Shown: positions 20,384 to 57,964 of the stretch, one piece after another
Position numbering within the stretch: the stretch's first letter is position 1
Layout: each line of letters begins with the position of its first letter
Sequence record: PQ671644.1
Origin: Escherichia phage DCP80
Direction: 5' to 3' (one strand)
DNA length: 64,000 nt
The notes under the pieces: generated by a model
What the model was told of the DNA's origin: nothing
Database searches by the model: none
The model's input: only the letters and a program-made list of their open reading frames with translations
Made by a program: the position numbers and the translations under genes

Positions 20384-20402
20384 ACTTTTCTCCTTTAAAG
20401 AT

Positions 20403-20410
20403 ATTTATAA
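20403..20410 (-). promoter_or_regulatory. late promoter TATAAATA for gene t
   Basis: Exact TATAAATA on the minus strand 20 nt upstream of the t ATG. Confidence 0.6.
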
Positions 20411-20419
20411 TATGGGGTA

Positions 20420-24200: not shown

Positions 24201-25004
24201 GGTTACAGTGTCACCGAGAACAAGATACTTATCGCCCATTACACCGACGTTACCATAATCACTAGACGGGAAACCCGTAGTGAATGTACCTAATGCAAGG
24301 CTATTACGGCCTGCCATTCGTCCGTCATTACGAATGCCATATTGTTTAGATGATGGAGTATTACCTGTCCACCATGACATTTCATCAGCTTGACCTGTCT
24401 GGGCGGTGCAAAGCTCATGCCACATAGTGCCACCAGACTTGGCGCGAACTTTACGAAGATAGTTTACACCATTCGTTTCGCCTGTGCCTGGGTATACATA
24501 ATTAACTAATGAATCTGTATCATATACACCAAAGGCTTTGCCACCGTGGATAACTGTATCGACTGCAATGCGTTTAGTTACTAATGAATCTGATGCTAAA
24601 ATACGGTTGGCCTGAAATTCACCACCATTTATAGAACGGAAATAGAATTCACTATTAGCAGTACCTTCTGTCCCCTGTTTAATCCTAATGCGTAATTCAC
24701 CAGCATTTGTAGTTTGAGGACGTGCATATATAACACCGCGTTCACTGCCATCAGCATTTTCAAACCATAAATGGGCATTTGATGTTGTATCGTTTGAAGC
24801 TCTTGAATAAAACGAGCCTTGCAACGCTCTAAAAGTTTGAGCCGAAATACTAGTGCCTGCTGTAATCGACCCGCTTGTAGAAAAGTTTCCAAAATTGTTT
24901 AATGGGCCGTTAATGCGTAAAGTTCCATTAATAGTTACATCCCCGTCAACCTGCCCACCTTTAGCAAAGCCCAAATCAATAATCTGTCCCTGGTCTGACT
25001 TAGT
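21252..25004 (-). CDS. 37: long tail fiber distal subunit gp37, T2-type with C-terminal intramolecular chaperone domain; N-terminal ~40 aa lost in N-run
   Basis: N-terminal region near-identical to T4 gp37 ([24 protein letters not shown]); C-terminus ...[19 protein letters not shown]...[15 protein letters not shown]... resembles self-cleaving intramolecular chaperone domains of tail fibres. Confidence 0.85.
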
Positions 25005-25224: not shown

Positions 25225-25256
25225 TGGTCCTTCGGGGCCATTGAAATGAGGAAACT

Positions 25257-26285
25257 ATGTCATATATTGATAAAGAATTTGCAGTCAGAGCTTTATCGTA
25301 TCAACCACGTTATAGAGAAGTCACCGGGAGCACATTTAAAGCAAACTGCAGATGTAAAGTTTGTGGCGACTCCCAGAAAGATTCACATAAAGCCAGATTC
25401 TGGGCGTATACTAATCCGGCTGATGGCGCGGTTTACGTGAAATGTTTTAACTGTGACTACTCCACGCATATAAGCAAATACATAAAAGAGTTTGAGCCGG
25501 ATTTGCACCGGGAATATATGGTTGAGAAGTACAAGGAGAACGCCTTCGGGCGACAACGCACTGAAGTTGTCGAAACTCCGAAAGAACCAGAAAAAACTCC
25601 GGTTATCGAACAGCTTGCTTTTTGTGAAAGACTCGATACTTTACCAGAAGCACATCCGATAGTTAAGTATGTAAAAAGTCGATGTATTCCAAGCAATGTT
25701 TGGAACCGGTTATGGTTTACAAACCAATGGCCCGCATTAGTTAACTCCGTCAATCCTGGGACGTATAAGAATGAAACGAATGAACCACGCTTGGTTATTC
25801 CTATCTTCAACGGCAAAAAAGAAATCGAATCTTTCCAAGGACGAGCTCTTCGCAAAGATGCACCACAAAAATATATCACAATCAAAGCTCACCCAGAAGC
25901 TTCCAAAGTCTATGGCGTAGACAAGATTGATGAGCGTAAACGCGTATGGGTAATGGAAGGTCCAATTGATAGTTTGTTTATCCCTAACAGCATTGCGATA
26001 ACTGGTGGCACATTGTCATTGGAAGCAGTTCCTTATGCTGAAACCAGAGTATGGGTAATGGACAACGAGCCAAGACATCCGGATACGATTAAACGTATGA
26101 AGAAGCTCGTTGAAGCTGGCGAAGCTGTTATGTTCTGGGACAATGCACCATGGCATACGAAAGACATAAATGAGATGGTTAAATCAGAAGGGGCAACCCC
26201 TGAACAAATCGAATCATATATGGCCGATAACGTTGCTCAAGGATTGATGGCGAGAATGCGACTTTCGAAGTACGCAAAAGTTTAG
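25257..26285 (+). CDS. 61: DNA primase gp61
   Basis: 342 aa (as T4 gp61); zinc ribbon CxxCGDS...CxNC, LKEFEPDL.REY, EPRLVIPI, FQGRAL.KDAPQKYITI, MAKMRLSKYAK. Confidence 0.93.
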   Translation: MSYIDKEFAVRALSYQPRYREVTGSTFKANCRCKVCGDSQKDSHKARFWAYTNPADGAVYVKCFNCDYSTHISKYIKEFEPDLHREYMVEKYKENAFGRQRTEVVETPKEPEKTPVIEQLAFCERLDTLPEAHPIVKYVKSRCIPSNVWNRLWFTNQWPALVNSVNPGTYKNETNEPRLVIPIFNGKKEIESFQGRALRKDAPQKYITIKAHPEASKVYGVDKIDERKRVWVMEGPIDSLFIPNSIAITGGTLSLEAVPYAETRVWVMDNEPRHPDTIKRMKKLVEAGEAVMFWDNAPWHTKDINEMVKSEGATPEQIESYMADNVAQGLMARMRLSKYAKV

Positions 26286-26393
26286 GAAGGGATTCCGGTA
26301 AAGTAACCGATGATGGAATGAATATGTTCTATTGTGACCTGGGGTAAGTGCACCCCTTGTGTTGCAGCGATAGGCACAACCAGTAAGTTCCAC

Positions 26394-26591
26394 CTATATA
26401 AGGCCGATTAATGCTAGTGAAACATCTACAACTGATTCGAGCGCGACGACTGGCAATATAACACCATGTGCCAATGCAATAGGGGCAACAATGAAATTCC
26501 AGAGTAGAACAAAACAGAGTATCGAAAGGACCAGAATCGTTCGCTTACGACTGCCTTTGATGGCTTGAATTAGACTAGATAGTTTGAGCAT
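26394..26591 (-). CDS. small membrane protein (65 aa), convergent to gene 61
   Basis: AAGGAGG RBS; hydrophobic segments predicted; conserved in duplicate at 59152..59349. Confidence 0.45.
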   Translation of the reverse strand: MLKLSSLIQAIKGSRKRTILVLSILCFVLLWNFIVAPIALAHGVILPVVALESVVDVSLALIGLI

Positions 26592-26613
26592 ACATCCTCC
26601 TTTCTTGTATTTA

Positions 26614-26637
26614 TGCTTTAAACCAATATGATATAAT
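26614..26637 (+). promoter_or_regulatory. middle promoter (MotA box TGCTTTA + -10 TATAAT) for gene 56
   Basis: ATGCTTTA then 11 nt then TATAAT upstream of the gene 56 RBS. Confidence 0.5.
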
Positions 26638-26675
26638 TAACATACAAACAATATGAATTGATAAGGAAAAATATA

Positions 26676-27194
26676 ATGGCTCATTTTAACGAGTGTTCTC
26701 AACTGATTGCTGGTGTTGATAAAGCGCAAGATGCGTATAATGATGTCCTAAAAGGCAATGATGACCCTCTGCAGATTATGCTTGATATGCAGAAATCTTT
26801 GCAGGTTCGTCTGGCTACAGAAAAACCAGAATATAACGCACATCCAGATGAATTGGCAACCGCAGGCGATGTTGTTGCATGGCTTCGTAACCAGAAAGAT
26901 TATGTCGACGACGAATTCCGTGAACTTCTGACTTCGCTCGGTGGCATGTCTAATGGTGAGAAAGCCGCATCCAGTTGCTGGAAGCCGTGGAAAGCGCAAC
27001 ATGCTGAATATCGTAATCGTCGTATTGATGAACTGTCTCCTGAAGACCAGCTCGAAATTAAATTCGAAATGATTGATATTCTGCACTTCGTTCTGAATAT
27101 GTTTCAAGGTCTGGGTCTTTCTGCTGAAGAAATCTTTAAACTGTATTACTTGAAAAATGCCGAGAACTTTGCTCGCCAAGACCGAGGTTATTAA
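26676..27194 (+). CDS. 56: dCTP pyrophosphatase gp56 (MazG-like)
   Basis: Start at MAHFNE (AAGGA RBS); matches T4 gp56 (VDKAQ, DPLQ.MLDMQ, ETAGDVV.W.R.QKD, DDEFRELLTSLG, SPEDQLEIKFE, EEIFKLYYLKN.ENFARQDRGY). Confidence 0.92.
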   Translation: MAHFNECSQLIAGVDKAQDAYNDVLKGNDDPLQIMLDMQKSLQVRLATEKPEYNAHPDELATAGDVVAWLRNQKDYVDDEFRELLTSLGGMSNGEKAASSCWKPWKAQHAEYRNRRIDELSPEDQLEIKFEMIDILHFVLNMFQGLGLSAEEIFKLYYLKNAENFARQDRGY

Positions 27195-27475
27195 TGGCTC
27201 GTTTAAATAAACGTCAACTTAAGAAAGCTCGTAAGAAGCATATTAATGCTATAATTGAAAACGCTAATGTTGAAATCTTTGTAGAACTCTTAGCCAATCA
27301 ACTAAAAAATTTATCTAAACAAGAAATTGATATGAATACTGAAAATGCTAAAAATGTAATCGAAACTCATAATGTTTTTGCTCAAGCTACAGCCGAATAC
27401 ATTGCCAATCCTACTGCTGAAAATCTAGCTAAAATGACTGAAGCCAATAAAGCAGTCCAAGCCGCCAAATTGTAA
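27194..27475 (+). CDS. hypothetical protein (93 aa)
   Basis: ORF overlapping the gene 56 stop (ATG/TAA overlap); helical, basic N-terminus. Confidence 0.5.
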   Translation: MARLNKRQLKKARKKHINAIIENANVEIFVELLANQLKNLSKQEIDMNTENAKNVIETHNVFAQATAEYIANPTAENLAKMTEANKAVQAAKL

Positions 27476-27516
27476 GTTATAAATACACCTGTAATTAAAC
27501 AACAAAGGAGTTTATT

Positions 27517-27750
27517 ATGGGTGGTTTCGTTAATATCAAAACCTTCACGCATCCAGCTGGTGAAGGTAAAGAAGTTAAAGGCGTTGAAGTATCAGTTCCG
27601 TTTGAAATCTATTCGAACGAGCACCGTATTGCTGATGCGCACTATCAGACTTTCCCTTCGGCCGTTGCAGCATATACTACTGTAGTGACTGATGCAGCCG
27701 ATTGGCGAACTAAGAACGCGGCAATGTTTACGCCTACCCCAGTAGTTTAA
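27517..27750 (+). CDS. soc: small outer capsid protein Soc
   Basis: 77 aa; matches T4 Soc (VNIKTF, AHYQTFPS, AAY.TV); AAGGAG RBS. Confidence 0.8.
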   Translation: MGGFVNIKTFTHPAGEGKEVKGVEVSVPFEIYSNEHRIADAHYQTFPSAVAAYTTVVTDAADWRTKNAAMFTPTPVV

Positions 27751-27754
27751 TTAT

Positions 27755-27780
27755 AGGGAACCTTCGGGTTCCCTTTTTTG
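27755..27780 (+). terminator. rho-independent terminator after soc
   Basis: GGGAACC-UUCG-GGUUCCC hairpin followed by UUUUUU. Confidence 0.65.
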
Positions 27781-27827
27781 CTTTTAATAGAGATGGTATA
27801 ATTATTTCAACTACAGAGGAGAATACT

Positions 27828-28025
27828 ATGTTAAACCGTTGGATTAAACCAAATAAAACTTTAGATGAAGTTATTGCCCATGATGTGCATTTTAAGTATG
27901 GTCTGGGTGTGTTTGACGAGGTTGTCGTGCACTCGTTCATGATGCACGATGATGATTCTTTAGAATTCAATATTGAAATCCGTTATGATGATGGTCAAGT
28001 TGAATTTAAACGAGGTTTCCTATGA
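27828..28025 (+). CDS. hypothetical protein (65 aa)
   Basis: ORF with GAGGAG RBS after a -10 TATAAT and CAACTAC leader. Confidence 0.45.
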   Translation: MLNRWIKPNKTLDEVIAHDVHFKYGLGVFDEVVVHSFMMHDDDSLEFNIEIRYDDGQVEFKRGFL

Positions 28026-28381
28026 TTAGTTGGCTCAAGAATTTATTCAAGACTAAACCTGGTGAAGGGGTGGTTCCTGTTAGCCTGCCAGATGTTAAAC
28101 TAAGAGAATATGTTTACATGGGCGATGGTATGATGGAAGAAGTTCGTCGCCGCCCAGAAAAAGCCGGTAATGTCGGACCAGGCGCATTGCCATTGAATTC
28201 GAAAAAGTTAAAAGAGCATCTGGATTCAAGACGTTCTACAAGCCATGTCGATACTACACCGCATATTGATATGACTCCGATTGTGGTTACTGCGGCCGCT
28301 GTCAGTTCGTGGACTGGTGATTCGTCTTATTCCTCCTATGATTCAGGAAGCTGCGATTCATCTTCCAGCTCGTGTGATTAA
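28022..28381 (+). CDS. hypothetical protein (118 aa), Ser/Cys-rich C-terminus
   Basis: ORF overlapping upstream stop; ends in S/C-rich tail. Confidence 0.5.
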   Translation: MISWLKNLFKTKPGEGVVPVSLPDVKLREYVYMGDGMMEEVRRRPEKAGNVGPGALPLNSKKLKEHLDSRRSTSHVDTTPHIDMTPIVVTAAAVSSWTGDSSYSSYDSGSCDSSSSSCD

Positions 28382-28576
28382 ATGAGAATTACAAGTTGGC
28401 TTAAAGATTGGTTGGTTACCCCGGGGATTGATGATTCCTGGGTGGCCAGAGCCGAGGAAGAAATGCAGCGCGAAGCTGAAGAATGGGCCGCCGCAAGCGT
28501 CAAAGATATGCAGGAAAAGAAGACCGAACGAGCTGTGCTTAAACTGATGCGTGATATCTACGGAGATAAATCATGA
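28382..28576 (+). CDS. hypothetical protein (64 aa)
   Basis: ATG directly after the preceding stop; acidic/helical. Confidence 0.45.
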
Positions 28577-28722
28577 CACAAGAAGAAGCTGAACGTCAGG
28601 CAAAAGAAGCACTGGATTTGCTTTTGAAAATTGGCAGTAAAATGATGGAAGAAAATGAAAAGTACATCAAGGAAAATAAAGTTCCTGATGGTCCATTAGT
28701 TGGTAAGAGGAAAACATTATGA
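28573..28722 (+). CDS. hypothetical small protein (49 aa)
   Basis: Short ORF read from sequence ([17 protein letters not shown]...); fills the gap between neighbours with start/stop overlaps; below ORF-track cutoff. Confidence 0.3.
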
Positions 28723-29796: not shown

Positions 29797-29826
29797 GTGT
29801 ACAACCAGATGGTCATAAGACATAAT
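29797..29826 (+). promoter_or_regulatory. T4-type early promoter
   Basis: GTGTAC-18nt-CATAAT then GATTCCATACTGAGTTACC leader and GGAG RBS. Confidence 0.55.
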
Positions 29827-29867
29827 GATTCCATACTGAGTTACCAAATAAACAAACGGAGAATAAA

Positions 29868-30385: not shown

Positions 30386-30415
30386 GTGTACATAGTATGG
30401 GGATAGACGTATAAT
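30386..30415 (+). promoter_or_regulatory. T4-type early promoter
   Basis: GTGTAC-18nt-TATAAT then GTTCCCATACTGAGTTACC leader. Confidence 0.55.
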
Positions 30416-30451
30416 GTTCCCATACTGAGTTACCAAATACTGGAGAATAAA

Positions 30452-33040: not shown

Positions 33041-33784
33041 ATGACACGTAACGAATATATCCAGGCCTTTAACGCAACTATCGACACAAAAGTAAAACCA
33101 TTGACAGGCGAATCGGCTATCCTTTTAATTATCAATTATTGGTTAAATCAGATTGATTCGACGATTGTTGCATCTGGTCGCTTCAAGAAAGACATTGCAA
33201 CTATTGCGAGTCGTGCCGGTAATGATGATATCAAGAAAACTTTTAAAGGTTCCAGAGTCCTGGCGTACCTGGTTAATAAAGACCTTCTTCATAAGTTTGG
33301 TGTTGAATCCAACCGCGGTAAAGGTACAATTGGGTATCATTGGTTTGGCGATGTTGAAAAATACTACCTTGATAAACAAGGCTATACTGTTTCTGAATTC
33401 GCACATTGCTGGGCTCGTGAATTCAGAGATAACAAAATGTCTATCATAAAATCAGCGACAAAATTGATGGGCGGTGATTTTCGCACTATCTCCCATTTGG
33501 CTGAGCACATGATAAAGGTTAAAGAGTCTGGTGAAAACCAGGTAATTATTACAGTTAAGCATGAGTTCTTTACGCCGGTGGCTACTCCAGAAAATGTCAA
33601 AAAGTATCTTGATGTTGCCTGTACGCTTTCTCATCAGCTGGTGTGTGCCCTTAACTATATGCGCACTGTTGAAAAAATTAAAGTAGACCCTATCACCAGT
33701 GCTCATGGTTGGAAAGGTTGGAAAATTGTGGTGACATTACCGACGATGAAGATGAGGACGATGAATAATGTTTATTATCCCTGA
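33041..33784 (+). CDS. hypothetical protein (247 aa) at the position of T4 genes 20/67
   Basis: ORF overlapping the gene 68 start by 17 nt; no resemblance to portal gp20 or gp67 noticed. Confidence 0.55.
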
Positions 33785-34196
33785 TGATTACGAATTAACT
33801 CTTGAAAACATTGAAAGTGTTTCCGAAGAAGCTCAGGGACAATTTGATTCATTATCTGAAGCCTTAGAAAAAGACGATATAAATATTATTGTAGAAAACA
33901 TGTTTGCAGCCGGTGAATACGAAAAAGCAACGGTTATCGGCGCTCTGAATGAAGGTGTTCAGCTTAACGAATTTATCGTTAAACATGTATCGTCTCGCGG
34001 TGAGTTAACCCGCACAAAAGACCGAGCTACTCGTAAGCGTAATGCTTTCCAAACAACTGGTCTTTCTAAAGCTAAACGTCGTCAAATTGCCCGTCTGGCT
34101 ACTAAAACGAAAAGAGCAAACCCATCTACGCAAATCAGAGCAGAGCGCAAGCGCAAAAAAGCTCGAGCTAAGCGTAAAGCATTCGGACTTGATTAA
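33768..34196 (+). CDS. 68: prohead core protein gp68
   Basis: 142 aa (T4 gp68 is 141 aa), basic C-terminal tail; immediately upstream of gene 21 as in T4. Confidence 0.7.
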
Positions 34197-34834
34197 TGGA
34201 ACAGAAACCAGAGTTACTAATCGAACACTGGGGTCAACCGGGCGAAATTAAAGATGGTGTACCGATGTTGGAATCTCATGATGGTTCCAGCAGCGGTTTA
34301 AAGCCAGGACTTTATATTGAAGGTATTTTCCTACAAGCTGAAGTTGTTAACCGTAATAAACGACTTTATCCTAAACATATTTTGGAAAAAGCCGTTGCGG
34401 ACTATATCGCCGAACAGGTTGAAACCAAGCAGTCTCTTGGAGAATTAAACCATCCACCTCGCGCAAACGTTGACCCTATGCAGGCAGCAATTATTATCGA
34501 GGAAATGTGGTGGAAAGGGAATGATGTATATGGCCGCGCGCGTATTATCGAAGGCGACCATGGCCCAGGTGATAAACTTGCTGCGAATATAAGAGCAGGT
34601 TGGATTCCTGGTGTATCTAGTCGTGGACTTGGTTCCTTGACTAAATCAGCAAAAGGTTATAGCATCGTTAATGAAGGTTTTAAATTGACGGTTGGAGTAG
34701 ATGCAGTATGGGGGCCAAGTGCTCCGGACGCTTGGGTCAAACCAAAGCAGATTACAGAATCACAAACGGCAGTTGCCGATACCAGTGCCGATGACGCCTT
34801 TATGGCTCTCGCAGAGGCTTTAAAGACGTTATAA
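34196..34834 (+). CDS. 21: prohead protease gp21
   Basis: 212 aa; matches T4 gp21 closely (GQPGEI.DGVPMLESHDG, LKPGLYIEGIF.QAEVVNRNKRLYPK, GELNHPPRANVDP, GDHGPGDKLAANIRAGWIPGVSSRGLGSL). Confidence 0.93.
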   Translation: MEQKPELLIEHWGQPGEIKDGVPMLESHDGSSSGLKPGLYIEGIFLQAEVVNRNKRLYPKHILEKAVADYIAEQVETKQSLGELNHPPRANVDPMQAAIIIEEMWWKGNDVYGRARIIEGDHGPGDKLAANIRAGWIPGVSSRGLGSLTKSAKGYSIVNEGFKLTVGVDAVWGPSAPDAWVKPKQITESQTAVADTSADDAFMALAEALKTL

Positions 34835-34837
34835 ATA
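34830..34837 (+). promoter_or_regulatory. late promoter TATAAATA for gene 22
   Basis: Exact TATAAATA overlapping the gene 21 stop, 30 nt upstream of the gene 22 ATG. Confidence 0.55.
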
Positions 34838-34866
34838 AATGTATATCTTAACAACAGGACTACAAA

Positions 34867-35685
34867 ATGCTTAAAGAACAACTCATTTCTGAAGCTCAGA
34901 ATATCGATGCTTCCGTTGCTCTTGATAGTATTTTCGAATCAGTTAATTTGTCCCCGGAAGCGAAAGCTACCTTCGGCACTGTATTCGAAGCTACCGTCAA
35001 GCAACACGCCATCAAACTGGCAGAATCTCACATTCACGCCATCGCTGAAAAAGCTGAAGAAGAAGTCGAAAAGAATAAAGAAGAAGCCGACGAAAAAGCA
35101 GAGAAAAAACTGAAAGAATCTGCAGCTAAATTCCTGGACCACGTTGCTAAAGAATGGCTCGCTGAAAATAAACTGGCTGTCGACCGCGGCATTAAAGCTG
35201 ACCTGTTCGAATCCATGTTCACCGGCATGAAAGAACTGTTCGTTGAGCACAACGTTGTTGTTCCAGAAGAATCTGTCGATGTTGTTGCAGAAATGCAGGA
35301 AGAACTGGCTGAACAGAAAGAAGAAACCGCTAATCTGTTCGAAGAAGTTGCTAAGCGTGATGCTTATATCAATTATGTCCAACGTGAAGTTGCGTTGACT
35401 GAAGCGACTAAAGACCTGACTGAATCCCAAAAAGAAAAAGTTGGTTCTCTGGTAGAAGGCATGGAATACTCTGATGCATTCGGTACCAAAATTGGCGCTA
35501 TCGTTGAAATGGTTAAAGGTCAGGTAGAACCCACCAACAAACCAATCACCGAAGCCGCTATAAATAAAAATGTAGACGATGCTGCGGCACTGAATTACAT
35601 TTCAGAAGCAGTTGAAGAAAAAGGCGCCAAGCCTACCCTGTCCTTCGCGGACTTGTCTGCTCTCGCAGCATCACGAATTTCTTAA
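34867..35685 (+). CDS. 22: prohead core scaffold protein gp22
   Basis: 272 aa, acidic helical protein between 21 and 23 (T4 gp22 269 aa). Confidence 0.85.
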   Translation: MLKEQLISEAQNIDASVALDSIFESVNLSPEAKATFGTVFEATVKQHAIKLAESHIHAIAEKAEEEVEKNKEEADEKAEKKLKESAAKFLDHVAKEWLAENKLAVDRGIKADLFESMFTGMKELFVEHNVVVPEESVDVVAEMQEELAEQKEETANLFEEVAKRDAYINYVQREVALTEATKDLTESQKEKVGSLVEGMEYSDAFGTKIGAIVEMVKGQVEPTNKPITEAAINKNVDDAAALNYISEAVEEKGAKPTLSFADLSALAASRIS

Positions 35686-35706
35686 TTTAATAAGGTTATA
35701 CAACAC

Positions 35707-37266
35707 ATGAAAAAGAATGCATTAGTTCAAAAATGGTCCGCTCTGTTGGAAAACGAAGCTCTTCCGGAAATCGTTGGTGCTTCTAAACAAGCTATCATCG
35801 CTAAAATCTTTGAAAACCAGGAACAAGATATTCTGACCGCTCCTGAATACCGTGACGAAAAAATCTCCGAGGCATTTGGTTCTTTCCTGACCGAAGCTGA
35901 AATCGGTGGTGACCATGGTTATGATGCTACCAATATCGCTGCTGGCCAGACCTCTGGTGCAGTAACTCAGATTGGGCCGGCAGTTATGGGCATGGTTCGT
36001 CGTGCTATCCCGCATCTGATTGCGTTTGATATTTGTGGCGTACAGCCTCTGAACAACCCGACTGGCCAGGTATTTGCCCTGCGTGCAGTATACGGTAAAG
36101 ACCCTGTAGCTGCTGGTGCTAAAGAAGCTTTCCACCCGATGTATGCTCCGAACGCTATGTTCTCTGGTCAGGGCGCTGCTGAAGCTTTTGAAGCACTGGC
36201 TGCAAGCAAAGTTCTGGAAGTTGGTAAAATTTATTCTCACTTCTTCGAAGCAACCGGTTCTGCACACTTCCAGGCTGTTGAAGCTGTAACTGTTGATGCT
36301 GCTGCTACTGATGCCGCTAAACTTGACGCCGAAGTTACCAAACTGCTCGAAGCTGGTAAGCTGGCCGAAATCGCTGAAGGTATGGCTACCTCTATCGCCG
36401 AATTGCAGGAAGGCTTCAACGGTTCTACTGATAACCCGTGGAACGAAATGGGCTTCCGTATCGATAAACAAGTTATCGAAGCTAAATCCCGTCAGCTGAA
36501 AGCAAGTTACTCCATCGAACTGGCACAGGACCTGCGCGCTGTTCATGGTATGGATGCTGATGCCGAATTGAGTGGTATTCTGGCTACCGAAATTATGCTG
36601 GAAATCAACCGCGAAGTTATCGATTGGATTAACTACTCCGCACAGGTTGGTAAATCTGGTATGACCAACACCGTTGGCGCTAAAGCTGGTGTGTTTGACT
36701 TCCAGGACCCGATTGATATCCGTGGCGCTCGTTGGGCTGGTGAAAGCTTCAAAGCCTTACTGTTCCAGATTGATAAAGAAGCCGCTGAAATCGCTCGTCA
36801 GACTGGCCGTGGTGCAGGTAACTTCATCATCGCTTCCCGTAACGTAGTTAACGTGCTGGCTGCTGTTGATACTTCTGTTAGTTATGCTGCTCAGGGTCTG
36901 GGTAAAGATTTCAACGTTGACACCACTAAAGCTGTGTTCGCCGGTGTTCTGGGTGGCAAATACCGTGTATACATCGACCAGTATGCTCGTGCAGACTATT
37001 TCACCATCGGTTATAAAGGCGCTAACGAAATGGATGCTGGTATCTACTACGCACCATATGTTGCACTGACCCCGCTGCGTGGCTCTGACCCGAAAAACTT
37101 CCAGCCGGTTATGGGCTTCAAAACCCGTTACGGTATCGGTATCAACCCGTTTGCTGACCCTGCTGCTCAGGCTCCGACCAAGCGCATTCAGAACGGCATG
37201 CCGGACATCGTTAACAGCCTTGGCTTGAACGGTTACTTTAGACGTGTATATGTTAAGGGAATTTAA
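35707..37266 (+). CDS. 23: major capsid protein gp23
   Basis: 519 aa; near-identical to T4 gp23 over most of its length (GASKQAIIAKIFENQE, GQTSGAVTQIGPAVMGMVRRAIP, ...FRRVYVKGI). Confidence 0.97.
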   Translation: MKKNALVQKWSALLENEALPEIVGASKQAIIAKIFENQEQDILTAPEYRDEKISEAFGSFLTEAEIGGDHGYDATNIAAGQTSGAVTQIGPAVMGMVRRAIPHLIAFDICGVQPLNNPTGQVFALRAVYGKDPVAAGAKEAFHPMYAPNAMFSGQGAAEAFEALAASKVLEVGKIYSHFFEATGSAHFQAVEAVTVDAAATDAAKLDAEVTKLLEAGKLAEIAEGMATSIAELQEGFNGSTDNPWNEMGFRIDKQVIEAKSRQLKASYSIELAQDLRAVHGMDADAELSGILATEIMLEINREVIDWINYSAQVGKSGMTNTVGAKAGVFDFQDPIDIRGARWAGESFKALLFQIDKEAAEIARQTGRGAGNFIIASRNVVNVLAAVDTSVSYAAQGLGKDFNVDTTKAVFAGVLGGKYRVYIDQYARADYFTIGYKGANEMDAGIYYAPYVALTPLRGSDPKNFQPVMGFKTRYGIGINPFADPAAQAPTKRIQNGMPDIVNSLGLNGYFRRVYVKGI

Positions 37267-37280
37267 TCCTTAATAAATTT

Positions 37281-37310
37281 AAGGGACTCTTCGGAGTCCC
37301 TTTCTTGTTT
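37281..37310. terminator. bidirectional terminator between gene 23 and convergent small gene
   Basis: GGGACUC-UUCG-GAGUCCC hairpin with U-runs on both strands. Confidence 0.6.
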
Positions 37311-37592
37311 TCATACCATACCATTTAAATGAACTTCTACCCGGCGCTTGATGAGGTCTCTGAAGTTAACATTGTTTTCTTGAAGTTTCAACCAATTACC
37401 ATTTTTATCTTTAGTGTGAGTAGAATAATTACCATTCCACCAGAAATCAGTGTCATATGCTAAGTTTTCATATTTTTTAACTAGTTTGTTCAGAGCATTA
37501 CCATTAACACCATTTGGGTATTTGTTGACCAATGCAATAACTTCAATTTCCAGATTTTTAAAGGTGTTCAGAAGGAAAGTTGATTTGTTCAT
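37311..37592 (-). CDS. hypothetical protein (93 aa), early gene antisense to the late capsid operon
   Basis: ORF with GGAG RBS and own early promoter between genes 23 and 24 (segD position in T4, but no GIY-YIG motif). Confidence 0.5.
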   Translation of the reverse strand: MNKSTFLLNTFKNLEIEVIALVNKYPNGVNGNALNKLVKKYENLAYDTDFWWNGNYSTHTKDKNGNWLKLQENNVNFRDLIKRRVEVHLNGMV

Positions 37593-37629
37593 TTTTAAAC
37601 TCCATTGTTTGGTAACTCAGTATGGAATC

Positions 37630-37659
37630 ATTATGTCTTATCTTAATCTGGTTGTAAAC
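37630..37659 (-). promoter_or_regulatory. T4-type early promoter
   Basis: Minus strand GTTTAC-18nt-CATAAT then GATTCCATACTGAGTTACC leader. Confidence 0.5.
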
Positions 37660-37665
37660 AACTTT

Positions 37666-37673
37666 TATAAATA
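37666..37673 (+). promoter_or_regulatory. late promoter TATAAATA for gene 24
   Basis: Exact TATAAATA about 27 nt upstream of the gene 24 ATG. Confidence 0.6.
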
Positions 37674-37699
37674 AAGTATATCACAAAAGGAAAGCGCAA

Positions 37700-37899
37700 A
37701 TGGCAAAGATTAACAAATTACTGCGCGAGTCAACTACCACTACCAGCAACTCCTTGGGCCGCCCGAATCTTGTTGCTTTGACCCGCGCTACAACCAAATT
37801 GATTTACCGCGATATTATCGCTGAACAACGTACAAGCCAGCCAGTTGCGGCGCTGTATGGTGTTAAATATCTTACTCCTGATAATGAATTCAGTTTCCA
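37700..37899 (+). CDS. 24: head vertex protein gp24, N-terminal 66 codons (truncated by N-run)
   Basis: MAKINKLLRESTTT.SNS.GRPNLVALTRATTKLIY.DI matches the T4 gp24 N-terminus. Confidence 0.88.
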
Positions 37900-37940
37900 N
37901 NNNNNNNNNNNNNNNNNNNNNNNNNNNNNNNNNNNNNNNN
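37900..37940. other. N-run (scaffold junction)
   Basis: 41 n. Confidence 0.95.
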
Positions 37941-38023
37941 TTCCCGGTCGCATTATCTTTAAAAATTCTATCAAGAAGTCCAAAAAGTAGGTCTGATAAT
38001 GAAAATCCTACTTTTGGTTCCAT
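37941..38023 (-). CDS. t: holin t, N-terminal 27 codons (second copy, truncated by N-run)
   Basis: Identical to 20301..20383. Confidence 0.75.
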
Positions 38024-38042
38024 ACTTTTCTCCTTTAAAGAT

Positions 38043-38050
38043 ATTTATAA
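38043..38050 (-). promoter_or_regulatory. late promoter TATAAATA for gene t
   Basis: Identical to 20403..20410. Confidence 0.6.
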
Positions 38051-38063
38051 TGCTTTTGCGCTA

Positions 38064-38615
38064 CTATTTTTTAAACCATCTTTTGAAGAATGATTTTTTC
38101 TCTTTTTCTGGCCAAGCCGGGAATTCACCACCGAGGTGTTCGTGTTTTTCTAAAAGAGCAAAGAAACGTTTAAGATTCTGGTGATAGAATTTTTCTTTCT
38201 TATCGGCGACTGAGGCTTCAACCATATTACTTAATACCTGGAATTCTTTATACAAATCGTCAATTTTTCGATTGCGAATCATTACTCGTTTATATGTTTC
38301 ATCTTCTTTCCAGCCATCATCTGTCCATATATCAAACTCGCCAGGTTTATCGAAAGTTATACCGACTGGGCTTCCTATGTCATTTATTAAGATTTCTTCT
38401 TTATTAAAAGTCCATGCACGTTTGCCTCGATGGTCTTCTTCATAAATCCAATCTTGAATGCGTTCGTCAAATACAACGGCATACCCTTCTTTAGGTTCTA
38501 AAGGTTTTTTAGCTGTTGAATGGGCCGGAAGGCCAAGGCCTTTAATGGGTTTATAATTTTCTTCTTTGTAGAATTCTTTTGTGTCAAAATAAAAATGATA
38601 AATTTTCATATTCAA
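38064..38615 (-). CDS. 38: gp38, T4 type (tail-fiber assembly chaperone, not a virion adhesin)
   Basis: 183 aa (as T4 gp38); near-identical to T4 gp38 (KIYH.YFDTKEFYKEENYKP.KGLGLPAHST.KKPLEPKEGYAVVFDER.QDWIYEEDHRGKRAWTFNKEEI). Confidence 0.9.
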   Translation of the reverse strand: MNMKIYHFYFDTKEFYKEENYKPIKGLGLPAHSTAKKPLEPKEGYAVVFDERIQDWIYEEDHRGKRAWTFNKEEILINDIGSPVGITFDKPGEFDIWTDDGWKEDETYKRVMIRNRKIDDLYKEFQVLSNMVEASVADKKEKFYHQNLKRFFALLEKHEHLGGEFPAWPEKEKKSFFKRWFKK

Positions 38616-38636: not shown

Positions 38637-41600
38637 TTATGCTAAACGAACGATATAGTTAAAAGCAATGTTTTTAACCGTGTTTTCTGTATTACCTGTA
38701 CTATTTACGGTAATGGTATGCCCATGTGAACCAATCGCTACAGTATGAGTGTGAGCACCGATACCTACCGTATGCGTGTGAGCACCAATACCTACAGTAT
38801 GAGCGTGGTTACCTGTGGCACTTGTGGTCCCTGACCAACTATGAGTATGAGCACCGTCTGAAGAAGTTTTGGCTATATTCGACCCTGCAGTAGCACCGCT
38901 CACGGTTCCAGTGATTTTAGCGTTGGCGTTTGCACCTACACTATTATATCCGTCATAGAATATGTTATTGGGTACGCCGGCTTGCATCTGAGGGCCTGAA
39001 CGCGCGTGTTGGTGTGCTCCGGCTGAACTGGTAGTACCACTCACTGTATGGTTATGGTTACCGGTGGTATTACTGGTCTTAGTACCATAATCAAAGCTTG
39101 AAGATGTTTTAGTGCCATAATCAAAGCTTGATGTGGTTTTAGTACCCAAGTCAGTACTCGAAGCAGATGCGCCATGGTTATGAGACTTAATACCATCAGC
39201 TTCTGCACTCAACACTGCGCGGCCACTTGGTTTACCCTTGATAGTTTGTCCACGCATATCAGGAATAGTACCAGAAGGATATGCAACAGCAAGCTTAGGA
39301 TAAGCACCTGTATCAAAGGTCTGACCTTCCATCAAAGCATAACCATTAGGAGGAGTATCCGTTGGCCATGGAATTGGGGCTCCAATAGGATAACTTGAAA
39401 CAATATCAGTTTTAAGTGATTCAATTGTACTGTTTAAGTTAGCAAAGTTACCAGAGCCACCGGTGATATTACCATCAGTTCCTAAAGTTGTGTTGCCTAC
39501 AATAATTTTACCAGGTAAGCGGAAGTCACCGGTGCGGCGGAATTCCCAACTTAAATCAGTTCCGGTAGTACTATTGCCCTGGTGATAATGAACGCGGAAG
39601 TCTCCTTGAGAAATTAAGGTGCCAATAGAATAAGTGCTATCACCATTTACATACCGTTGTTTAACAATAGGAATGTATTCAGAAGTAGCAGTACGCTCTA
39701 TATTCATATAAATTGGAGCCCTGACATCTGCGTAATTCTGAGATGCAAACGAACCAGCTCCTGCTGGGCGTACCGTATCAGTACATTCGGCCTCAATATA
39801 TGTCGACTGCCCCAATTTCATTCTAAAATTGGCATTAATGCGAGAGTTACTGTTTATCGTAGTTAAAGCATTATTTTGATCTACTATAAAAGAATCTCTT
39901 CCTAATCCAACCATACCATCGTTTAATCCTATTCTCACAGGTCTCAAAGAGCTGTGAATGTCTCCACTTTCGCCTTCATTTTGATTGGTTGGAAGAATAT
40001 AAAAGTTACTTTCTGAACGACGGAAAATAGCGCCATATTCAGCATTCCAAATTCTTAATGCATCTGCTGTTCCACCAATTTTTACTTGTCCGGTAATAGA
40101 AGAACCACCTTGGACAAACAAACCGTTAGACATAGTAACATTGCCACCAAAAGAACCTGTACCGGAGGCACTTATATTTCCAAGGCCTATGATATGGTCT
40201 GTTTCAACAGCTCCGTTAAATTTAAAGTTAACTGGACCTACTGTTTGACCTGACGCAGGATTAGTACGTTGAGCGTAGAAATAATAACCTTGTGAATCTG
40301 AAACTTCGAATACAGTTTCTCTATTACCGCCACCTGTATTAAATGAATTACCCCACGCTTTAATAGATATATAGTTTTTATTCTGTCCTGCGCGAGTACC
40401 AGCGCCCCACAGTATAGTTTTAGTGCCATCTAATGATGTAGGTGCATCAAGTTGAATACCGTCAGCTCTAGCCCCGGTAAGAAGTACCCCGTTATCAAAT
40501 TTAATTCTTTGAATAGAAGAAATAGTGCCGTCAGCATAAAGCTGTACATTATTAGCGCCGGTTACCAGTTTAAGAATACCTGGGTTAAGTTCCATGCCTT
40601 CTTGGGTGTTAATATTGGTTTGACCTCTACCGCGGAAATAGTGCGACATTTTTCCGCCAGAGTTATAACCAATATGCGTCTGACCATCGCCAGCTGTATT
40701 CCCGTCAGCCTGAGTTTGAGCTGATAAAAATGCAGCATTGGTTCCAGGCATAATCCATGTGGTGCCTTGGTCTTCTGAACGACCAAATAAACCTTTACGA
40801 GTACTACGGAAACTATCTGGAGTAATAGAAGCAACTGAATTCCCTGAACCAACTAAATCATAAACACCGGTTTTTTTGTATGACAGCCCCGTCCCGTTAT
40901 CGCCTAGAGCTAAATAAACACCGAATCCTAAAGCGGCACCATTACCATAGTCGCTTGACGGGTATCCTTCAGTCACAGTACCAATGGCCAAGCTATTGCG
41001 AACAATCATTCTGCCGTCATTACGAATACCATATAGTTTATATGTTGGTGTATTACCAGACCACCAAGAAACCTCATCAGCTTGGCCTAATTGGGCCGTA
41101 CAAATTTCATGATACATTGTACCACCAGACTTGGCGCGAACTTTACGAAGATAGTTTACACCATTCGTTTCGCCTGTGCCTGGGTATGTATATTTAACTA
41201 ATGAATCAGTGTCATATACACCAAATGCTTTGGCATCGTGAATAACTGTATCAGCTGCAATGCGTTTTGTTAATAACGCATCCGAAGCTAAAATACGGTT
41301 AGCCTGAAATTCACCGCCGTTTATAGAACGGAAATAGAATTCACTATTAGCAGTGCCTTCTGTCCCCTGTTTAAGCCTAATGCGTAATTCACCAGCATTT
41401 GTAGTTTGAGGGCGAGTATATATAACACCACGTTCAGTGCCATCGGCATTTTCAAACCAAAGGTGGGCATTTGACGTATCGTTTGTTGCTCTTGAATAAA
41501 ACGAACCCTGTAATGCTCTAAAAGTTTGAGCCGAAATACTCGTGCCTGCTGTAATCGACCCGCTTGTGGAAAAGTTTCCAAAATTGTTTAATGGGCCATT

Positions 41601-41810
41601 AATGCGTAAAGTTCCAGTAATAGTTACATCGCCATCAACTTGTCCACCTTTTGCAAAGCCCAAATCAATAATCTGTCCCTGGTCGGACTTGGTAAAAATA
41701 GTGCGGTCACGCAAGTTAATAGCCAGTTCGCCTTCATCTAACTGAGCTGCAGTAGGCTTGGCTCCTGGTGTTTTACTTCTTTTAAATTGTATCGATTTTA
41801 AAGTAGCCAT
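38637..41810 (-). CDS. 37: long tail fiber distal subunit gp37, T4 type (His-x-His C-terminal tip)
   Basis: 1057 aa; matches T4 gp37 from MATLK.IQFKRSK to the [48 protein letters not shown]-terminus. Confidence 0.95.
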
Positions 41811-50195: not shown

Positions 50196-50942
50196 ATGAC
50201 TTTATCAAAAACCAAAACGCTGAAAGTTAAACGTCGTCTGGAACACACTCAAGCTTCCGCTAAACGTCGCGGTAAGGACTTTAACCTGGATTTTGATTAT
50301 CTGGTTAACATTCTTGACCAAAAAGTTTGTGCTTATTCTGGTGAGACATTTAATAACTCTATTGAAGGTGAGAAGTTATCATTAGAGCGTTTTAACAATG
50401 ATATTGGTTATATCAAGGGTAATGTTATTCCTGTTAAAAAGAAATACAATACCATGCGTTCTGATTGGACCCTGGATGAGCTTAAACAACGCCGTGATGA
50501 TGTTGCTGTAAAAATTGCTCGCCCTTCTGCCAAGAAGATTGATAAGTTAAATCTGACTGCAGAGAAATGGGAACAGATTAAAAAGTCATATACTCATATC
50601 AAGAACATCCAGCATAAACGTGATAATCGCGTTAAGCATTATGCTCAAATGAGTAAATCAGAGCAGTCCAAAGAAAACCAATTAAAAATGGTTGCTCTGA
50701 AGGCTCGCATTGATGGTTCCCGTGTTGCGGAAGGTCATGAGCTTACTAAATTGAACGTTTTGCTCAAAGGCAATGACTGGAAAGTTACCAAGAAATTAAC
50801 TGATGCTGAAACGCTTTTTGATTGCTATGATAAAATCATTCAAGGTCTTGAGCGTTTTGAGAAGATTGGTTTTATTGGTAAATTAAAACTGAAACGTGGT
50901 CTGCCTTTGAACGCGTCAATTTTTAAACTGATTAGAGGTTAA
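50196..50942 (+). CDS. hypothetical protein (248 aa) at the srd position, diverged copy
   Basis: About 55% identical to 8247..8990 with identical last ~25 aa; flanks near-identical. Confidence 0.55.
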   Translation: MTLSKTKTLKVKRRLEHTQASAKRRGKDFNLDFDYLVNILDQKVCAYSGETFNNSIEGEKLSLERFNNDIGYIKGNVIPVKKKYNTMRSDWTLDELKQRRDDVAVKIARPSAKKIDKLNLTAEKWEQIKKSYTHIKNIQHKRDNRVKHYAQMSKSEQSKENQLKMVALKARIDGSRVAEGHELTKLNVLLKGNDWKVTKKLTDAETLFDCYDKIIQGLERFEKIGFIGKLKLKRGLPLNASIFKLIRG

Positions 50943-50943
50943 T

Positions 50944-51243
50944 GTGATGTACTACGCATATGTGCTAGTCTACAAAGATAAAGATGGTTTTGAACATCCA
51001 TTGGAGTATGATGGAAAGGTGACCTTATACACCACAAAAGTGGGCGCAGAATATGAACTTGCCAACTATTCATATACTACAAAACGCTATTTAAGTATGG
51101 GACGTATTGAAACACGGTATATTCCCAGAAAATGGTGGTTTGATAAGCGTGAAACAAAAACAGTTTTTCCTACTGAAGAACGTGCCCGCGAACTGAAATT
51201 AATTTTAGATACTTTATATGTTAAGCGAGTAAAATTGGCATGA
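50944..51243 (+). CDS. hypothetical protein (99 aa; dda.1 position), second copy
   Basis: 93% identical to 7946..8245. Confidence 0.5.
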   Translation: MMYYAYVLVYKDKDGFEHPLEYDGKVTLYTTKVGAEYELANYSYTTKRYLSMGRIETRYIPRKWWFDKRETKTVFPTEERARELKLILDTLYVKRVKLA

Positions 51244-52568: not shown

Positions 52569-52800
52569 GGTACATAAAGAAGATTTAGATAATCTCATCT
52601 ATGGTATTCAGGACGCGGTTGAATTTTTCGAAGATAATCCGACTATCGTCGTGCAGGGTAATTACGTTTTACTGGAACTGAATCTTATTCGGAAACGTAT
52701 GGCCGCGATTGAATATTTTAACAATGAAGAGCCAGGGATTTTTATCTCCGACTATGTTGCTGGTGAAATTCAGAAATTAAAAGAGATGTGCGATGATTGA
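52561..52800 (+). CDS. hypothetical protein (79 aa), second copy
   Basis: Matches 6389..6628. Confidence 0.5.
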   Translation: MYKVHKEDLDNLIYGIQDAVEFFEDNPTIVVQGNYVLLELNLIRKRMAAIEYFNNEEPGIFISDYVAGEIQKLKEMCDD

Positions 52801-53476: not shown

Positions 53477-53482
53477 AAAGTA

Positions 53483-53512
53483 GTGTACAAGGCCAATGGA
53501 AAGAGACATAAT
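53483..53512 (+). promoter_or_regulatory. T4-type early promoter (second copy of 5677..5706)
   Basis: GTGTAC-18nt-CATAAT then CATCAACTACTGATGAGGA. Confidence 0.5.
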
Positions 53513-53543
53513 CATCTCATCAACTACTGATGAGGACAACAAA

Positions 53544-53696
53544 ATGATTACTTCTTTTGAAATTGGCCAACAATATGAAATGTCCGCTCTTCAAGCTGCT
53601 GAAGCAGGTCTGACTAAAGCGTTTGAATGTGCATTTGCAAATATTCGTGGTAAAATCTTTACTGTCAATAAAATTGCGGTATATGATAAAGAAACA
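53544..53696 (+). CDS. hypothetical protein, N-terminal fragment (copy of 5388..5645)
   Basis: ATG 53544 after GAGGA RBS; truncated by N-run. Confidence 0.45.
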
Positions 53697-57140: not shown

Positions 57141-57170
57141 CTTTTGCCTGACGTTCAGCTTCTTCTTGTG

Positions 57171-57916: not shown

Positions 57917-57964
57917 AGTATTCTCCTCTGTAGTTGAGATAATTATACCATCTCTATTAAAAGC

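What the first reader, a model, noticed from the sequence alone, without database searches (positions are those of the whole stretch)
37311..37659. Early-promoter gene transcribed antisense between major capsid gene 23 and vertex gene 24
A 93-aa ORF with a consensus early promoter (GTTTAC-18-CATAAT) sits on the opposite strand between genes 23 and 24, separated from gene 23 by a bidirectional terminator. T4 carries the homing endonuclease segD here; this ORF has no GIY-YIG motif and may be a different cargo gene or a remnant of a mobile insertion.
Basis: partly seen in the sequence, partly recalled or inferred. Interest (0 to 1): 0.4.

Follow-up and report, generated by a model that had tools for sequence, protein, structure and literature searches.

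The report
Small early gene between capsid genes
This is a real but already catalogued small phage gene of unknown function, switched on early in infection and sitting backwards between the two main capsid genes of a T4-like coliphage; it is not a fragment of the T4 segD homing endonuclease, and it is ordinary for this group of phages.

Summary
Window 37311..37592 (-) is a 93-aa ORF with a GGAG ribosome-binding site, a T4-type early promoter (GTTTAC-18-CATAAT, 37659..37630) and a hairpin terminator (37281..37302) shared tail-to-tail with gene 23.

- **Identity:** the region is 100% identical to Escherichia phage 212 (Gaprivervirus). The ORF is the known hypothetical protein VR7ORF190c / JS98 orf173 / RB69ORF188c (phrog_6003, E 9e-47).
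- **Distribution:** homologues occur in 238 phage records, assigned to Gapriver-, Dhaka- or Mosigvirus in every record whose taxonomy was read. In each of the ~10 contexts inspected they lie between genes 23 and 24.
- **Coding evidence:** dN/dS is 0.08-0.28, so it codes for protein.
- **Not segD:** BLASTP against T4 SegD gives E 3.2, and there is no GIY-YIG or other Pfam domain.
- **Slot:** it is empty in the Tequatrovirus (RB27) and Jiaodavirus genomes read, and holds segD in T4 and about 50 relatives.
- **Prior description:** the early promoter and terminator were already predicted for the RB69 homologue in 2006.
- **Protein:** the AF2 model (pLDDT 87.5) is a small basic three-helix plus beta-hairpin protein with no known structural relative. 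Function is unknown; an early host-directed accessory protein is inferred only.

Low interest; already known.

The parts
37311..37592 (-). 93-aa ORF (10.9 kDa, pI 9.4). Member of phrog_6003 = VR7ORF190c / JS98 orf173 / RB69ORF188c.
   Evidence: dN/dS 0.08-0.28. AF2 pLDDT 87.5 with H3-24, H31-47, E52-61, E67-71, H77-89.
37600..37603 (-). Shine-Dalgarno GGAG, 7 nt upstream of the ATG.
   Evidence: Sequence. The start context AAAATGA is invariant in alignment A4.
37608..37629 (-). Transcribed leader GATTCCATACTGAGTTACCAAA. It belongs to a repeated promoter-plus-leader cassette.
   Evidence: 4 copies in the window against 0 expected. Alignment A3. 4-9 places per Gaprivervirus genome.
37630..37635 (-). 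-10 hexamer CATAAT.
   Evidence: The homologous -10 is TACTAT in JS98 and PhAPEC2 and TATTAT in T4.
37654..37659 (-). -35 hexamer GTTTAC (T4 early-promoter type), preceded by an A-rich stretch.
   Evidence: GTTTACA is conserved in three genera. GTTTAC at -36..-31 is the T4 early consensus (PMC1524935).
37281..37302 (.). Bidirectional intrinsic terminator hairpin, shared by gene 23 (+) and the ORF (-).
   Evidence: Conserved in position in VR7, JS98, PhAPEC2, T4 and RB27. Annotated '23-><-RB69ORF188c' in RB69.
37666..37673 (+). Late promoter TATAAATA of gene 24, back to back with the early promoter (6 nt from its -35 hexamer).
   Evidence: In RB69, Pl:109573 overlaps Pe:109605.
35707..37266 (+). 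Gene 23, major capsid protein (left neighbour).
37700..37899 (+). 5' part of gene 24, capsid vertex protein (right neighbour). It is cut by the N run at 37900-37940.

Best explanation
A genuine, vertically inherited, probably non-essential early accessory gene of a Gaprivervirus (VR7-like T4 relative).

Shown at sequence level:
- It is a self-contained transcription unit placed backwards in the 355-nt gap between the gene 23 terminator and the gene 24 late promoter.
- The unit runs: T4-type early promoter (GTTTAC-18-CATAAT), a 30-nt leader, GGAG, the 93-aa ORF, then a hairpin that also terminates gene 23.

Inferred from established T4 biology:
- Host sigma-70 RNA polymerase transcribes it in the first minutes of infection.
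- The hairpin keeps this transcript from running antisense into gene 23.
- Later, gp55-dependent transcription of genes 23 and 24 proceeds on the other strand.

The product is a 10.9-kDa, basic (pI 9.4-9.8 in all family members), cysteine-free, soluble protein. It is predicted with good confidence to be a three-helix bundle with an inserted beta-hairpin. The invariant N-G-N-A-x-N motif sits at the start of helix 2.

Weak inference only: like most small early ORFans of T4-type phages, it most likely acts stoichiometrically in the cytoplasm by binding a host (or phage) protein or nucleic acid. That would be a host-takeover or counter-defence role. It is unlikely to be an enzyme or a virion part.

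It is unrelated to SegD. It merely occupies the same polymorphic slot.
For: - **ORF and signals:**
- **Identity:** 100% nt identity to phage 212 over 37200-37760. The full-length match to phrog_6003 has E 8.8e-47.
- **Distribution:** homologues in 238 phage records fall into three identity bands. These correspond to Gaprivervirus (>=90%), Dhakavirus (about 62%) and Mosigvirus (about 35%) in the records whose taxonomy was read.
- **Synteny:** the gene sits between genes 23 and 24, antisense, in every context inspected. These include metagenomic contigs.
- **Purifying selection:** dN/dS 0.08-0.28.
- **Fast evolution:** 61% / 35% aa identity against 98% / 84% for gp23 in the same phage pairs.
- **Promoter:** its position is conserved across genera. 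Its cassette is repeated upstream of other small ORFs. An early promoter Pe:109605, a terminator '23-><-RB69ORF188c' and a late promoter Pl:109573 were published for the RB69 homologue (PMC1524935 supplements).
- **Dispensability:** a 1-nt deletion splits the gene in Mosigvirus 'mogra'. The slot is empty in RB27 (Tequatrovirus) and ATCCa (Jiaodavirus), and most Tequatrovirus hits show the same shortened span.
- **Structure:** pLDDT 87.5. A 32%-identical family member in BFVD has the same fold, TM 0.80-0.84.
- **Physical properties:** basic pI, no Cys, no hydrophobic segment.
Against: - No experiment or homology bears on function. There is no Pfam, NCBIfam or PADLOC hit, and PDB sequence search gives nothing better than E 0.05.
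- Early timing is inferred from sequence motifs only. The -10 hexamer starts with C, not T.
- The host-interaction role is an argument by analogy with other small early T4 genes.
- Fast evolution fits an arms race but equally fits weak constraint.
Confidence: 0.8

Rival explanations
1. Degenerate fragment or remnant of the segD GIY-YIG homing endonuclease (or of another free-standing homing endonuclease) that once occupied the slot.
For: Same slot, same antisense orientation and the same promoter layout as T4 segD.
Against: - BLASTP against T4 SegD gives E 3.2 over 24 residues.
- No GIY-YIG, HNH, NUMOD or HTH Pfam hit in any of 7 family members, even at E <= 10.
- The ORF is intact, full length in three genera and under purifying selection.
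- The predicted fold gave no nuclease or homing-endonuclease DNA-binding domain among the top matches.
Confidence: 0.02
2. Capsid-related accessory protein (assembly factor, or a minor head or vertex component), as its position between genes 23 and 24 would suggest.
For: The location inside the head-gene cluster is conserved in three genera. There are very weak PHROG hits to 'virion structural protein' (E 0.22).
Against: - It lies on the opposite strand, with an early rather than a late promoter. No TATAAATA is seen on its strand in the upstream sequence.
- It is absent from T4, RB27 and the Jiaodavirus genome read, which build the same capsid.
- It is frameshifted in the isolated phage 'mogra', whose genome is deposited as complete.
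- It does not track with the gene 24 duplication. Mosigvirus and contig L018 carry one gene 24; Dhaka- and Gaprivervirus and contig L021 carry two.
Confidence: 0.07
3. The ORF is incidental. The functional product would be an early antisense or spacer transcript, or the DNA would simply fill the SegD target site and so protect the genome from SegD-mediated homing during mixed infection.
For: - The slot is a homing-endonuclease site in T4 (PMC2988022).
- The promoter is conserved.
- Any insertion between the terminator and the late promoter would disrupt an 'empty-site' target (inference).
Against: - The protein sequence, not just the DNA, is conserved. Synonymous sites are saturated between genera while 35-61% of residues persist, and dN/dS is 0.08-0.28.
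- SD and start codon are conserved.
- The transcript should stop at the hairpin before gene 23.
- The SegD cleavage site is unknown, so the protection idea cannot be tested here.
Confidence: 0.05

Closest known systems
RB69ORF188c / JS98 orf173 / VR7ORF190c (PHROG phrog_6003, unknown function)
   Same: Homologous protein: 93-100% identity to Gaprivervirus copies, about 62% to JS98, about 35% to the Mosigvirus copy. Same length (88-93 aa), same position and orientation between genes 23 and 24, and the same early promoter, terminator and late promoter layout.
   Different: Nothing essential. The Gaprivervirus copies have a 5-residue longer C-terminus. Their promoter carries a genus-specific leader shared with other early genes.
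T4 segD (free-standing GIY-YIG homing endonuclease gene between genes 23 and 24)
   Same: Same slot between the gene 23 terminator and the gene 24 late promoter, and the same antisense orientation. A sigma-70-like site (TTTACA-17-TATTAT with a TG extension) lies at the homologous position upstream.
   Different: Unrelated protein: 223 aa GIY-YIG against 93 aa with no detectable motif (BLASTP E 3.2). segD is present in only 53 records and absent from close relatives, as a mobile gene would be. This ORF is fixed in whole genera.
PeSL-flanked ORFans of RB49/phi1 (promoter-early stem-loop regulatory cassettes; Arbiol et al. 2010, PMC2839356)
   Same: A small ORFan driven by a repeated strong sigma-70-like early promoter cassette and bounded by a stem-loop. 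The paper notes that the few PeSLs inside virion modules almost always accompany genes of unknown function. The cassette here is repeated 4 times in the window and 4-9 times per genome.
   Different: In this copy the stem-loop is at the 3' end of the ORF, not fused to the promoter. The copy at 29.76-29.85 kb does have hairpin plus promoter. No evidence was obtained here for recombination or mini-circle formation at this locus.

Membership tests
GIY-YIG homing endonuclease (SegD-like) | GIY-YIG catalytic domain (Pfam PF01541) near the N-terminus | tested here: not met
   No Pfam hit at E <= 1 for the ORF, or at E <= 10 for 7 family members. No GIY...YIG motif is visible in the sequence.
GIY-YIG homing endonuclease (SegD-like) | Sequence similarity to T4 SegD, including its C-terminal DNA-binding part | tested here: not met
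   BLASTP E 3.2, 7/24 identities.
GIY-YIG homing endonuclease (SegD-like) | Sporadic presence or absence among close relatives (mobility) | tested here: not met
   Homologues were found in 238 records, always at the same site where context was read, and essentially once per genome. By contrast, segD is in 53 of 922 matching records. The share of genomes in each genus that carry the ORF was not counted.
phrog_6003 / RB69ORF188c family | Full-length match to the family profile | tested here: met
   E 8.8e-47, residues 1-90 on profile 1-90/90.
phrog_6003 / RB69ORF188c family | Position between genes 23 and 24 on the opposite strand | tested here: met
T4-type early (sigma-70) promoter | -35 GTTTAC, 17-18 nt spacer, -10 with A at -11 and T at -7, A-rich upstream region, correct orientation 5' of an ORF | tested here: met
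   GTTTAC-18-CATAAT preceded by TATAAAAGTT. Consensus features as described in PMC1524935. The homologous RB69 site scored 29.9 in that paper's HMM.
T4-type early (sigma-70) promoter | Transcript 5' end mapped, and made before phage protein synthesis | not testable with these tools
   No expression data are available for this phage or its relatives in the tools used.
PeSL regulatory cassette (Arbiol 2010) | Repeated sigma-70-like early promoter motif | tested here: met
   4 copies in the window where 0 are expected. 4-9 places per Gaprivervirus genome.
PeSL regulatory cassette (Arbiol 2010) | Stem-loop fused to or overlapping the promoter | tested here: inconclusive
   No hairpin adjoins this copy. 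Upstream lie the gene 24 late promoter and start. The hairpin is at the ORF's 3' end. The 29.8-kb copy has a hairpin immediately upstream.
Rho-independent bidirectional terminator | G+C-rich hairpin followed by a T-rich tract on both strands | tested here: met
   9-bp stem, 5 GC pairs, tetraloop. -15.2 / -14.6 kcal/mol, z -4.4 / -4.4. Tails are TCTTGTTTTC (+) and AAATTTATTA (-), the latter weaker.

The most novel reading that the evidence does not exclude
The gap between the gene 23 terminator and the gene 24 late promoter may be a conserved 'cargo slot' with a resident early promoter. The block TATTTATAAA(A)GTT(G/A)TTTACA-17/18-(-10) is alignable in Gapriver-, Dhaka- and Mosigvirus and in T4 itself. 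Two consequences would follow. First, T4 segD, reported to lack any promoter of its own (PMC2988022), would be driven by an overlooked early promoter inherited from an RB69ORF188c-type cassette that it replaced. Second, the 93-aa family would be a new-fold early protein directed against a host target or defence system.
Probability: 0.2. Interest if true: 0.4.

Novelty: already known. Interest (0 to 1): 0.15.

Why it matters
It matters little in itself. The gene is one of the many small early ORFans of T4-type phages, and it is already in GenBank, UniRef and PHROGs as a hypothetical protein.

Its modest value has three parts:
- It is a clean example of one intergenic slot in the otherwise rigid head-gene cluster that carries three alternative states: empty, segD, or this ORF.
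- The comparison points to a sigma-70-like promoter in front of T4 segD, where the literature reports none.
- A confidently modelled, fast-evolving, basic early protein with no structural relatives is a reasonable candidate for screens of host-takeover or anti-defence factors in Mosig-, Dhaka- and Gaprivervirus, genera that include phages isolated for therapy.

Tried and rejected
- **Sequence libraries:** Pfam, NCBIfam and PADLOC gave no hit. PHROGs gave only the family itself.
- **Word-indexed protein search:** 3 close relatives only.
- **Exhaustive HMMER over 1.84 billion representatives:** 5 hits. Three are true small homologues. One is a chimeric 160-aa contig product (P0006). One is a spurious repeat protein matched on NGNG/DESGNW low-complexity stretches (P0005).
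- **PDB sequence profile search:** nothing below E 0.05.
- **IMG/VR scan:** returned only 9 loci. Several have the exact genome lengths of known isolates (VR20, VR25, VR26, JS98), so no new diversity came from it.
- **Rfam on the fragment:** only a sub-threshold TarB hit (31.7 bits against a gathering score of 80) lying on the terminator hairpin. This is taken as chance.
- **Leader RNA fold:** not better than shuffles, z +0.9, so no structured leader.
- **Literature:** searches for the ORF names found nothing. One literature search was wasted on a badly chosen term.
- **Middle or late promoter for the ORF:** by reading the upstream sequence, no MotA box and no TATAAATA lie on the minus strand.
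- **segD-remnant idea:** rejected.

Full report
**1. What is in the sequence**

Window 37311..37592 on the minus strand is a 93-aa ORF with an ATG start. GGAG lies at 37603..37600, 7 nt upstream of the ATG. Further upstream on the same strand is GTTTAC (37659..37654), then 18 nt, then CATAAT (37635..37630). The scanner reads this as TTTACA-17-CATAAT, 10 of 12.

Downstream of the stop codon is a 9-bp G+C-rich hairpin at 37281..37302. Both strands fold well (-15.2 and -14.6 kcal/mol, z about -4.4) and both have a T-rich tail. Gene 23 (35707..37266, +) ends 15 nt before the hairpin, so the two genes converge on one terminator.

Gene 24 starts at 37700 (+). Its late promoter TATAAATA (37666..37673) is only 6 nt from the -35 hexamer of the early promoter, on the opposite strand.

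A single sigma-70-like match is not significant in this A+T-rich DNA (1 found, 1.8 expected). The case for the promoter rests on comparison, given below.

**2. A caveat about the window**

The window is not one contiguous genome segment. It holds 14 N runs that separate fragments of 3.4-5.2 kb. There is also one junction without Ns at 33740/33741. Phage 212 matches 33741..37899 at 98.75% and nothing upstream: identity is 22/100 before the junction and 98/100 after it.

The true context of the finding is therefore the 4.16-kb fragment 33741..37899. It carries the gene 67 3' end, then genes 68, 21, 22, 23, the ORF, and the gene 24 5' part. What follows the N run at 37900 (genes 38 and 37 on the minus strand) is not adjacent in the phage. 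The full context was taken from relatives.

**3. Identity**

The 561 nt around the ORF are 100% identical to Escherichia phage 212 and 91-95% identical to VR7, VR20, VR25, VR26, SP18 and others. VR7 is classified in genus Gaprivervirus, Tevenvirinae.

In those records the ORF is annotated 'hypothetical protein'. In VR7 it is 'VR7ORF190c, similar to JS98 ORF173c'. It matches phrog_6003 (unknown function) end to end, E 8.8e-47.

tblastn finds it in 238 phage records in three identity bands: at least 90%, about 62%, and about 35%. The records whose taxonomy was read assign these bands to Gaprivervirus (VR7), Dhakavirus (JS98) and Mosigvirus (PhAPEC2, where it is annotated 'similar to RB69ORF188c'). 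All source names in the 15-billion-protein collection are 'hypothetical' or 'uncharacterized', apart from two evident mis-annotations.

The exhaustive HMMER scan of 1.84 billion representatives found only three further true homologues. This is a narrow family.

**4. Is it a real gene?**

Yes.
- Within genera dN/dS is 0.08-0.28. Between genera synonymous sites are saturated while 35-61% of residues persist.
- Start codon, SD position and length are conserved.
- It evolves much faster than its neighbours. Window against JS98 gives 61% aa identity against 98% for gp23. Window against PhAPEC2 gives 35% against 84%.
- It is probably dispensable. A 1-nt deletion splits it in Mosigvirus 'mogra', and related genera lack it altogether.

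**5. Synteny and the slot**

In each of the roughly ten contexts inspected the gene lies between genes 23 and 24 on the opposite strand. These are phage 212, VR7, JS98, PhAPEC2, mogra, and the metagenomic contigs L018-L023. tblastn gave 239 places in 238 records, so it is essentially single-copy.

T4 has segD there. Only 53 of 922 matching records cover at least 80% of the T4 query that contains segD. Most others, including T2, RB7 and RB27 and the Jiaodavirus Klebsiella phages, span only about 470 nt for that query. That is the size expected if the segD segment is missing.

In the two empty slots that were read (RB27 and ATCCa), 81-83 nt separate gene 23 from gene 24: stop codon, hairpin, about 17 nt, TATAAATA, gene 24.

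The slot between the hairpin and the late promoter thus has three states. The inserted unit here is 'early promoter + ORF', about 355 nt.

**6. The promoter**

Aligning the ORF-to-gene-24 spacers of the window, VR7, JS98, PhAPEC2 and T4 shows a shared layout. In order it contains:
- the gene 24 SD;
- the late promoter;
- (A)AAGTT(G/A)TTTACA;
- 17-18 nt;
- a -10 hexamer (CATAAT, TACTAT or TATTAT);
- a leader, then the SD, then AAAATGA.

The scanner calls a site at the homologous position in JS98, PhAPEC2 and T4.

Nolan et al. 2006 describe GTTTAC at -36..-31, conserved A(-11) and T(-7), variable T(-12), an A-rich -40s region and C-rich -3..-1 as the T4-type early-promoter signature. All of these fit here...AAAAGTT GTTTAC ... 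CATAAT GATTCC A.

Their supplementary tables list three features for RB69:
- an early promoter Pe:109605 (minus strand, score 29.9);
- a terminator named '23-><-RB69ORF188c' at 109234-109251;
- a late promoter Pl:109573.

This is exactly the architecture found here. It was therefore already described for the homologue.

In Gaprivervirus the -10 plus 22-nt leader, CATAATGATTCCATACTGAGTTACCAAA, is a repeated module. It has 4 copies in the window where 0 are expected, each upstream of a different small ORF. It occurs at 4-9 places per genome. This resembles the repeated early-promoter cassettes (PeSLs) of RB49/phi1. Arbiol et al. note that, when these occur inside virion modules, they almost always accompany genes of unknown function. 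The leader has no significant fold.

**7. Not segD**

BLASTP of the ORF against T4 SegD gives E 3.2. No GIY-YIG or other domain appears in any family member. The ORF is intact and constrained. The gene is, however, a known gene of T4 relatives.

**8. The protein**

It is 10.9 kDa. The pI is 9.4-9.8 in all five divergent members examined, with no Cys and no hydrophobic segment.

AlphaFold2 with the 7-sequence alignment gives mean pLDDT 87.5 and pTM 0.70. The elements are helix 3-24, helix 31-47, hairpin 52-61/67-71, and helix 77-89. The BFVD model of a 32%-identical member superposes at TM 0.80-0.84.

Invariant residues are K3, F6, L21, N30-G31-N32-A33, N35, A45, W51, G65 and Q71. These map to the N-cap of helix 2, the first strand and the hairpin turn.

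**9. Most likely mechanism**

- **Shown:** an autonomous unit of promoter, SD, ORF and terminator on the 'early' strand.
- **Inferred from T4 biology:** transcription by host sigma-70 polymerase immediately after infection, and termination at the shared hairpin so that gene 23 is not covered by antisense RNA. The GGAG SD is the kind of site cut by the RegB endoribonuclease in T4 early messages. This last point is my own knowledge; it was not tested, and no regB gene was searched for in these phages.
- **Weakly inferred:** the small basic soluble product binds a host or phage macromolecule, as do the characterised small early proteins of T4. That would be host takeover or counter-defence. I put about 0.8 on 'real early accessory gene of this known family', and only about 0.3 on the host-directed or anti-defence class specifically.

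**10. Rivals**

- segD remnant: 0.02.
- Capsid accessory protein: 0.07. Against it are the strand, the promoter class, its absence from T4, RB27 and Jiaodavirus, which share the same capsid, and the frameshift in an isolated phage.
- Non-coding or site-filling role: 0.05. Against it are codon-level constraint and the conserved SD and ATG.

**11. Novelty and score**

Already known. The identical protein is in GenBank (phage 212, XPP61055.1). The family is in PHROGs and UniRef. The locus architecture was published for RB69 in 2006. Interest is 0.15.

The one point a T4 specialist might note concerns segD. Its upstream region aligns with this promoter and carries TTTACA-17-TATTAT with a TG extension (10/12). 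Edgell et al. 2010 state that no segD-specific promoter could be identified. This is a lead, not a result.

Noticed in passing
whole window; N runs at 4511, 9760, 15031, 20286, 25005, 29506, 37900, 42024, 46131, 49973, 53697, 57105, 60515, 63923; hidden junction at 33740/33741: The window is a concatenation of about 15 fragments (3.4-5.2 kb, roughly in decreasing length). They are joined by 10-58 Ns, and once with no Ns at all. Phage 212 matches 33741..37899 but not the sequence just upstream. Neighbourhood across these joins is not biological.
   Followed up: yes
25229-28606 vs 57141-60514 (96.6%, inverted); 5493-8397 vs 50792-53696 (95.6%, inverted); 24250-25001 vs 40942-41690 (87%); 37941-38051 = 20301-20411 (100%): The same genome regions appear twice at 95-97% identity. 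The fragments therefore seem to come from at least two related T4-like phages (a mixed or metagenomic assembly), not from one genome.
   Followed up: partly
37608-37635(-), 29821-29848(+), 30410-30437(+), 11894-11921(-): A repeated early-promoter cassette: G(T/G)GTAC/GTTTAC, about 18 nt, (C/T)ATAAT, then the near-invariant leader CCATACTGAGTTAC. It lies upstream of four different small ORFs, with 4-9 places per Gaprivervirus genome. Why the first ~20 transcribed bases are conserved is unexplained. The leader has no stable fold.
   Followed up: partly
L006 (T4 NC_000866) 2254-2282, minus strand, upstream of segD: T4 has TTTACA-17-TATTAT with a TG extension (10/12) at the position homologous to this ORF's early promoter. 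A review (PMC2988022) states that no segD-specific promoter could be found. segD may sit behind a promoter inherited from an RB69ORF188c-type cassette.
   Followed up: partly
L002 (VR7) 5505-8069; L004 (JS98) 1-2399; L001 (phage 212) 6504-9065; L021 1338-3897: Gapriver- and Dhakavirus relatives, and one metagenomic contig, carry two tandem copies of the vertex gene 24 (24(1)/24(2), 24a/24b). Mosigvirus, T4 and contig L018 carry one. The window is cut inside the first copy, so this cannot be seen here.
   Followed up: no
L005 (phage mogra) 2493-2761: In Mosigvirus 'mogra' the homologue is split into two ORFs (38 and 51 aa) by a 1-nt deletion. This is either a natural loss of function in an isolated phage or a sequencing error.
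   Followed up: partly
window 37225-37311 (+): A sub-threshold Rfam hit to the Vibrio sRNA TarB (31.7 bits, gathering score 80, E 0.0035) lies on the gene 23 terminator hairpin. It is taken as a chance match to a terminator-like structure.
   Followed up: yes
database records PQ341120 (EAWsc9) and protein P0008: Two homologues carry evidently wrong names in public sources: 'glycosyl hydrolase family 25' and 'NADPH-dependent curcumin reductase CurA'. Protein P0006 is a 160-aa chimera of an unrelated, apparently bacterial, protein sequence and a fragment of this ORF, most likely an assembly artefact.
   Followed up: no
window 38064-38615 (-) and 38637-41810 (-): The fragment after the N run encodes a 183-aa protein that, from memory of the T4 sequence, resembles the gp38 tail-fibre assembly protein or adhesin. 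It also encodes a 1057-aa protein that looks like a gp37 long tail fibre, with His-rich GxHxH repeats near its C-terminus. Neither identification was tested, and neither relates to the finding.
   Followed up: no
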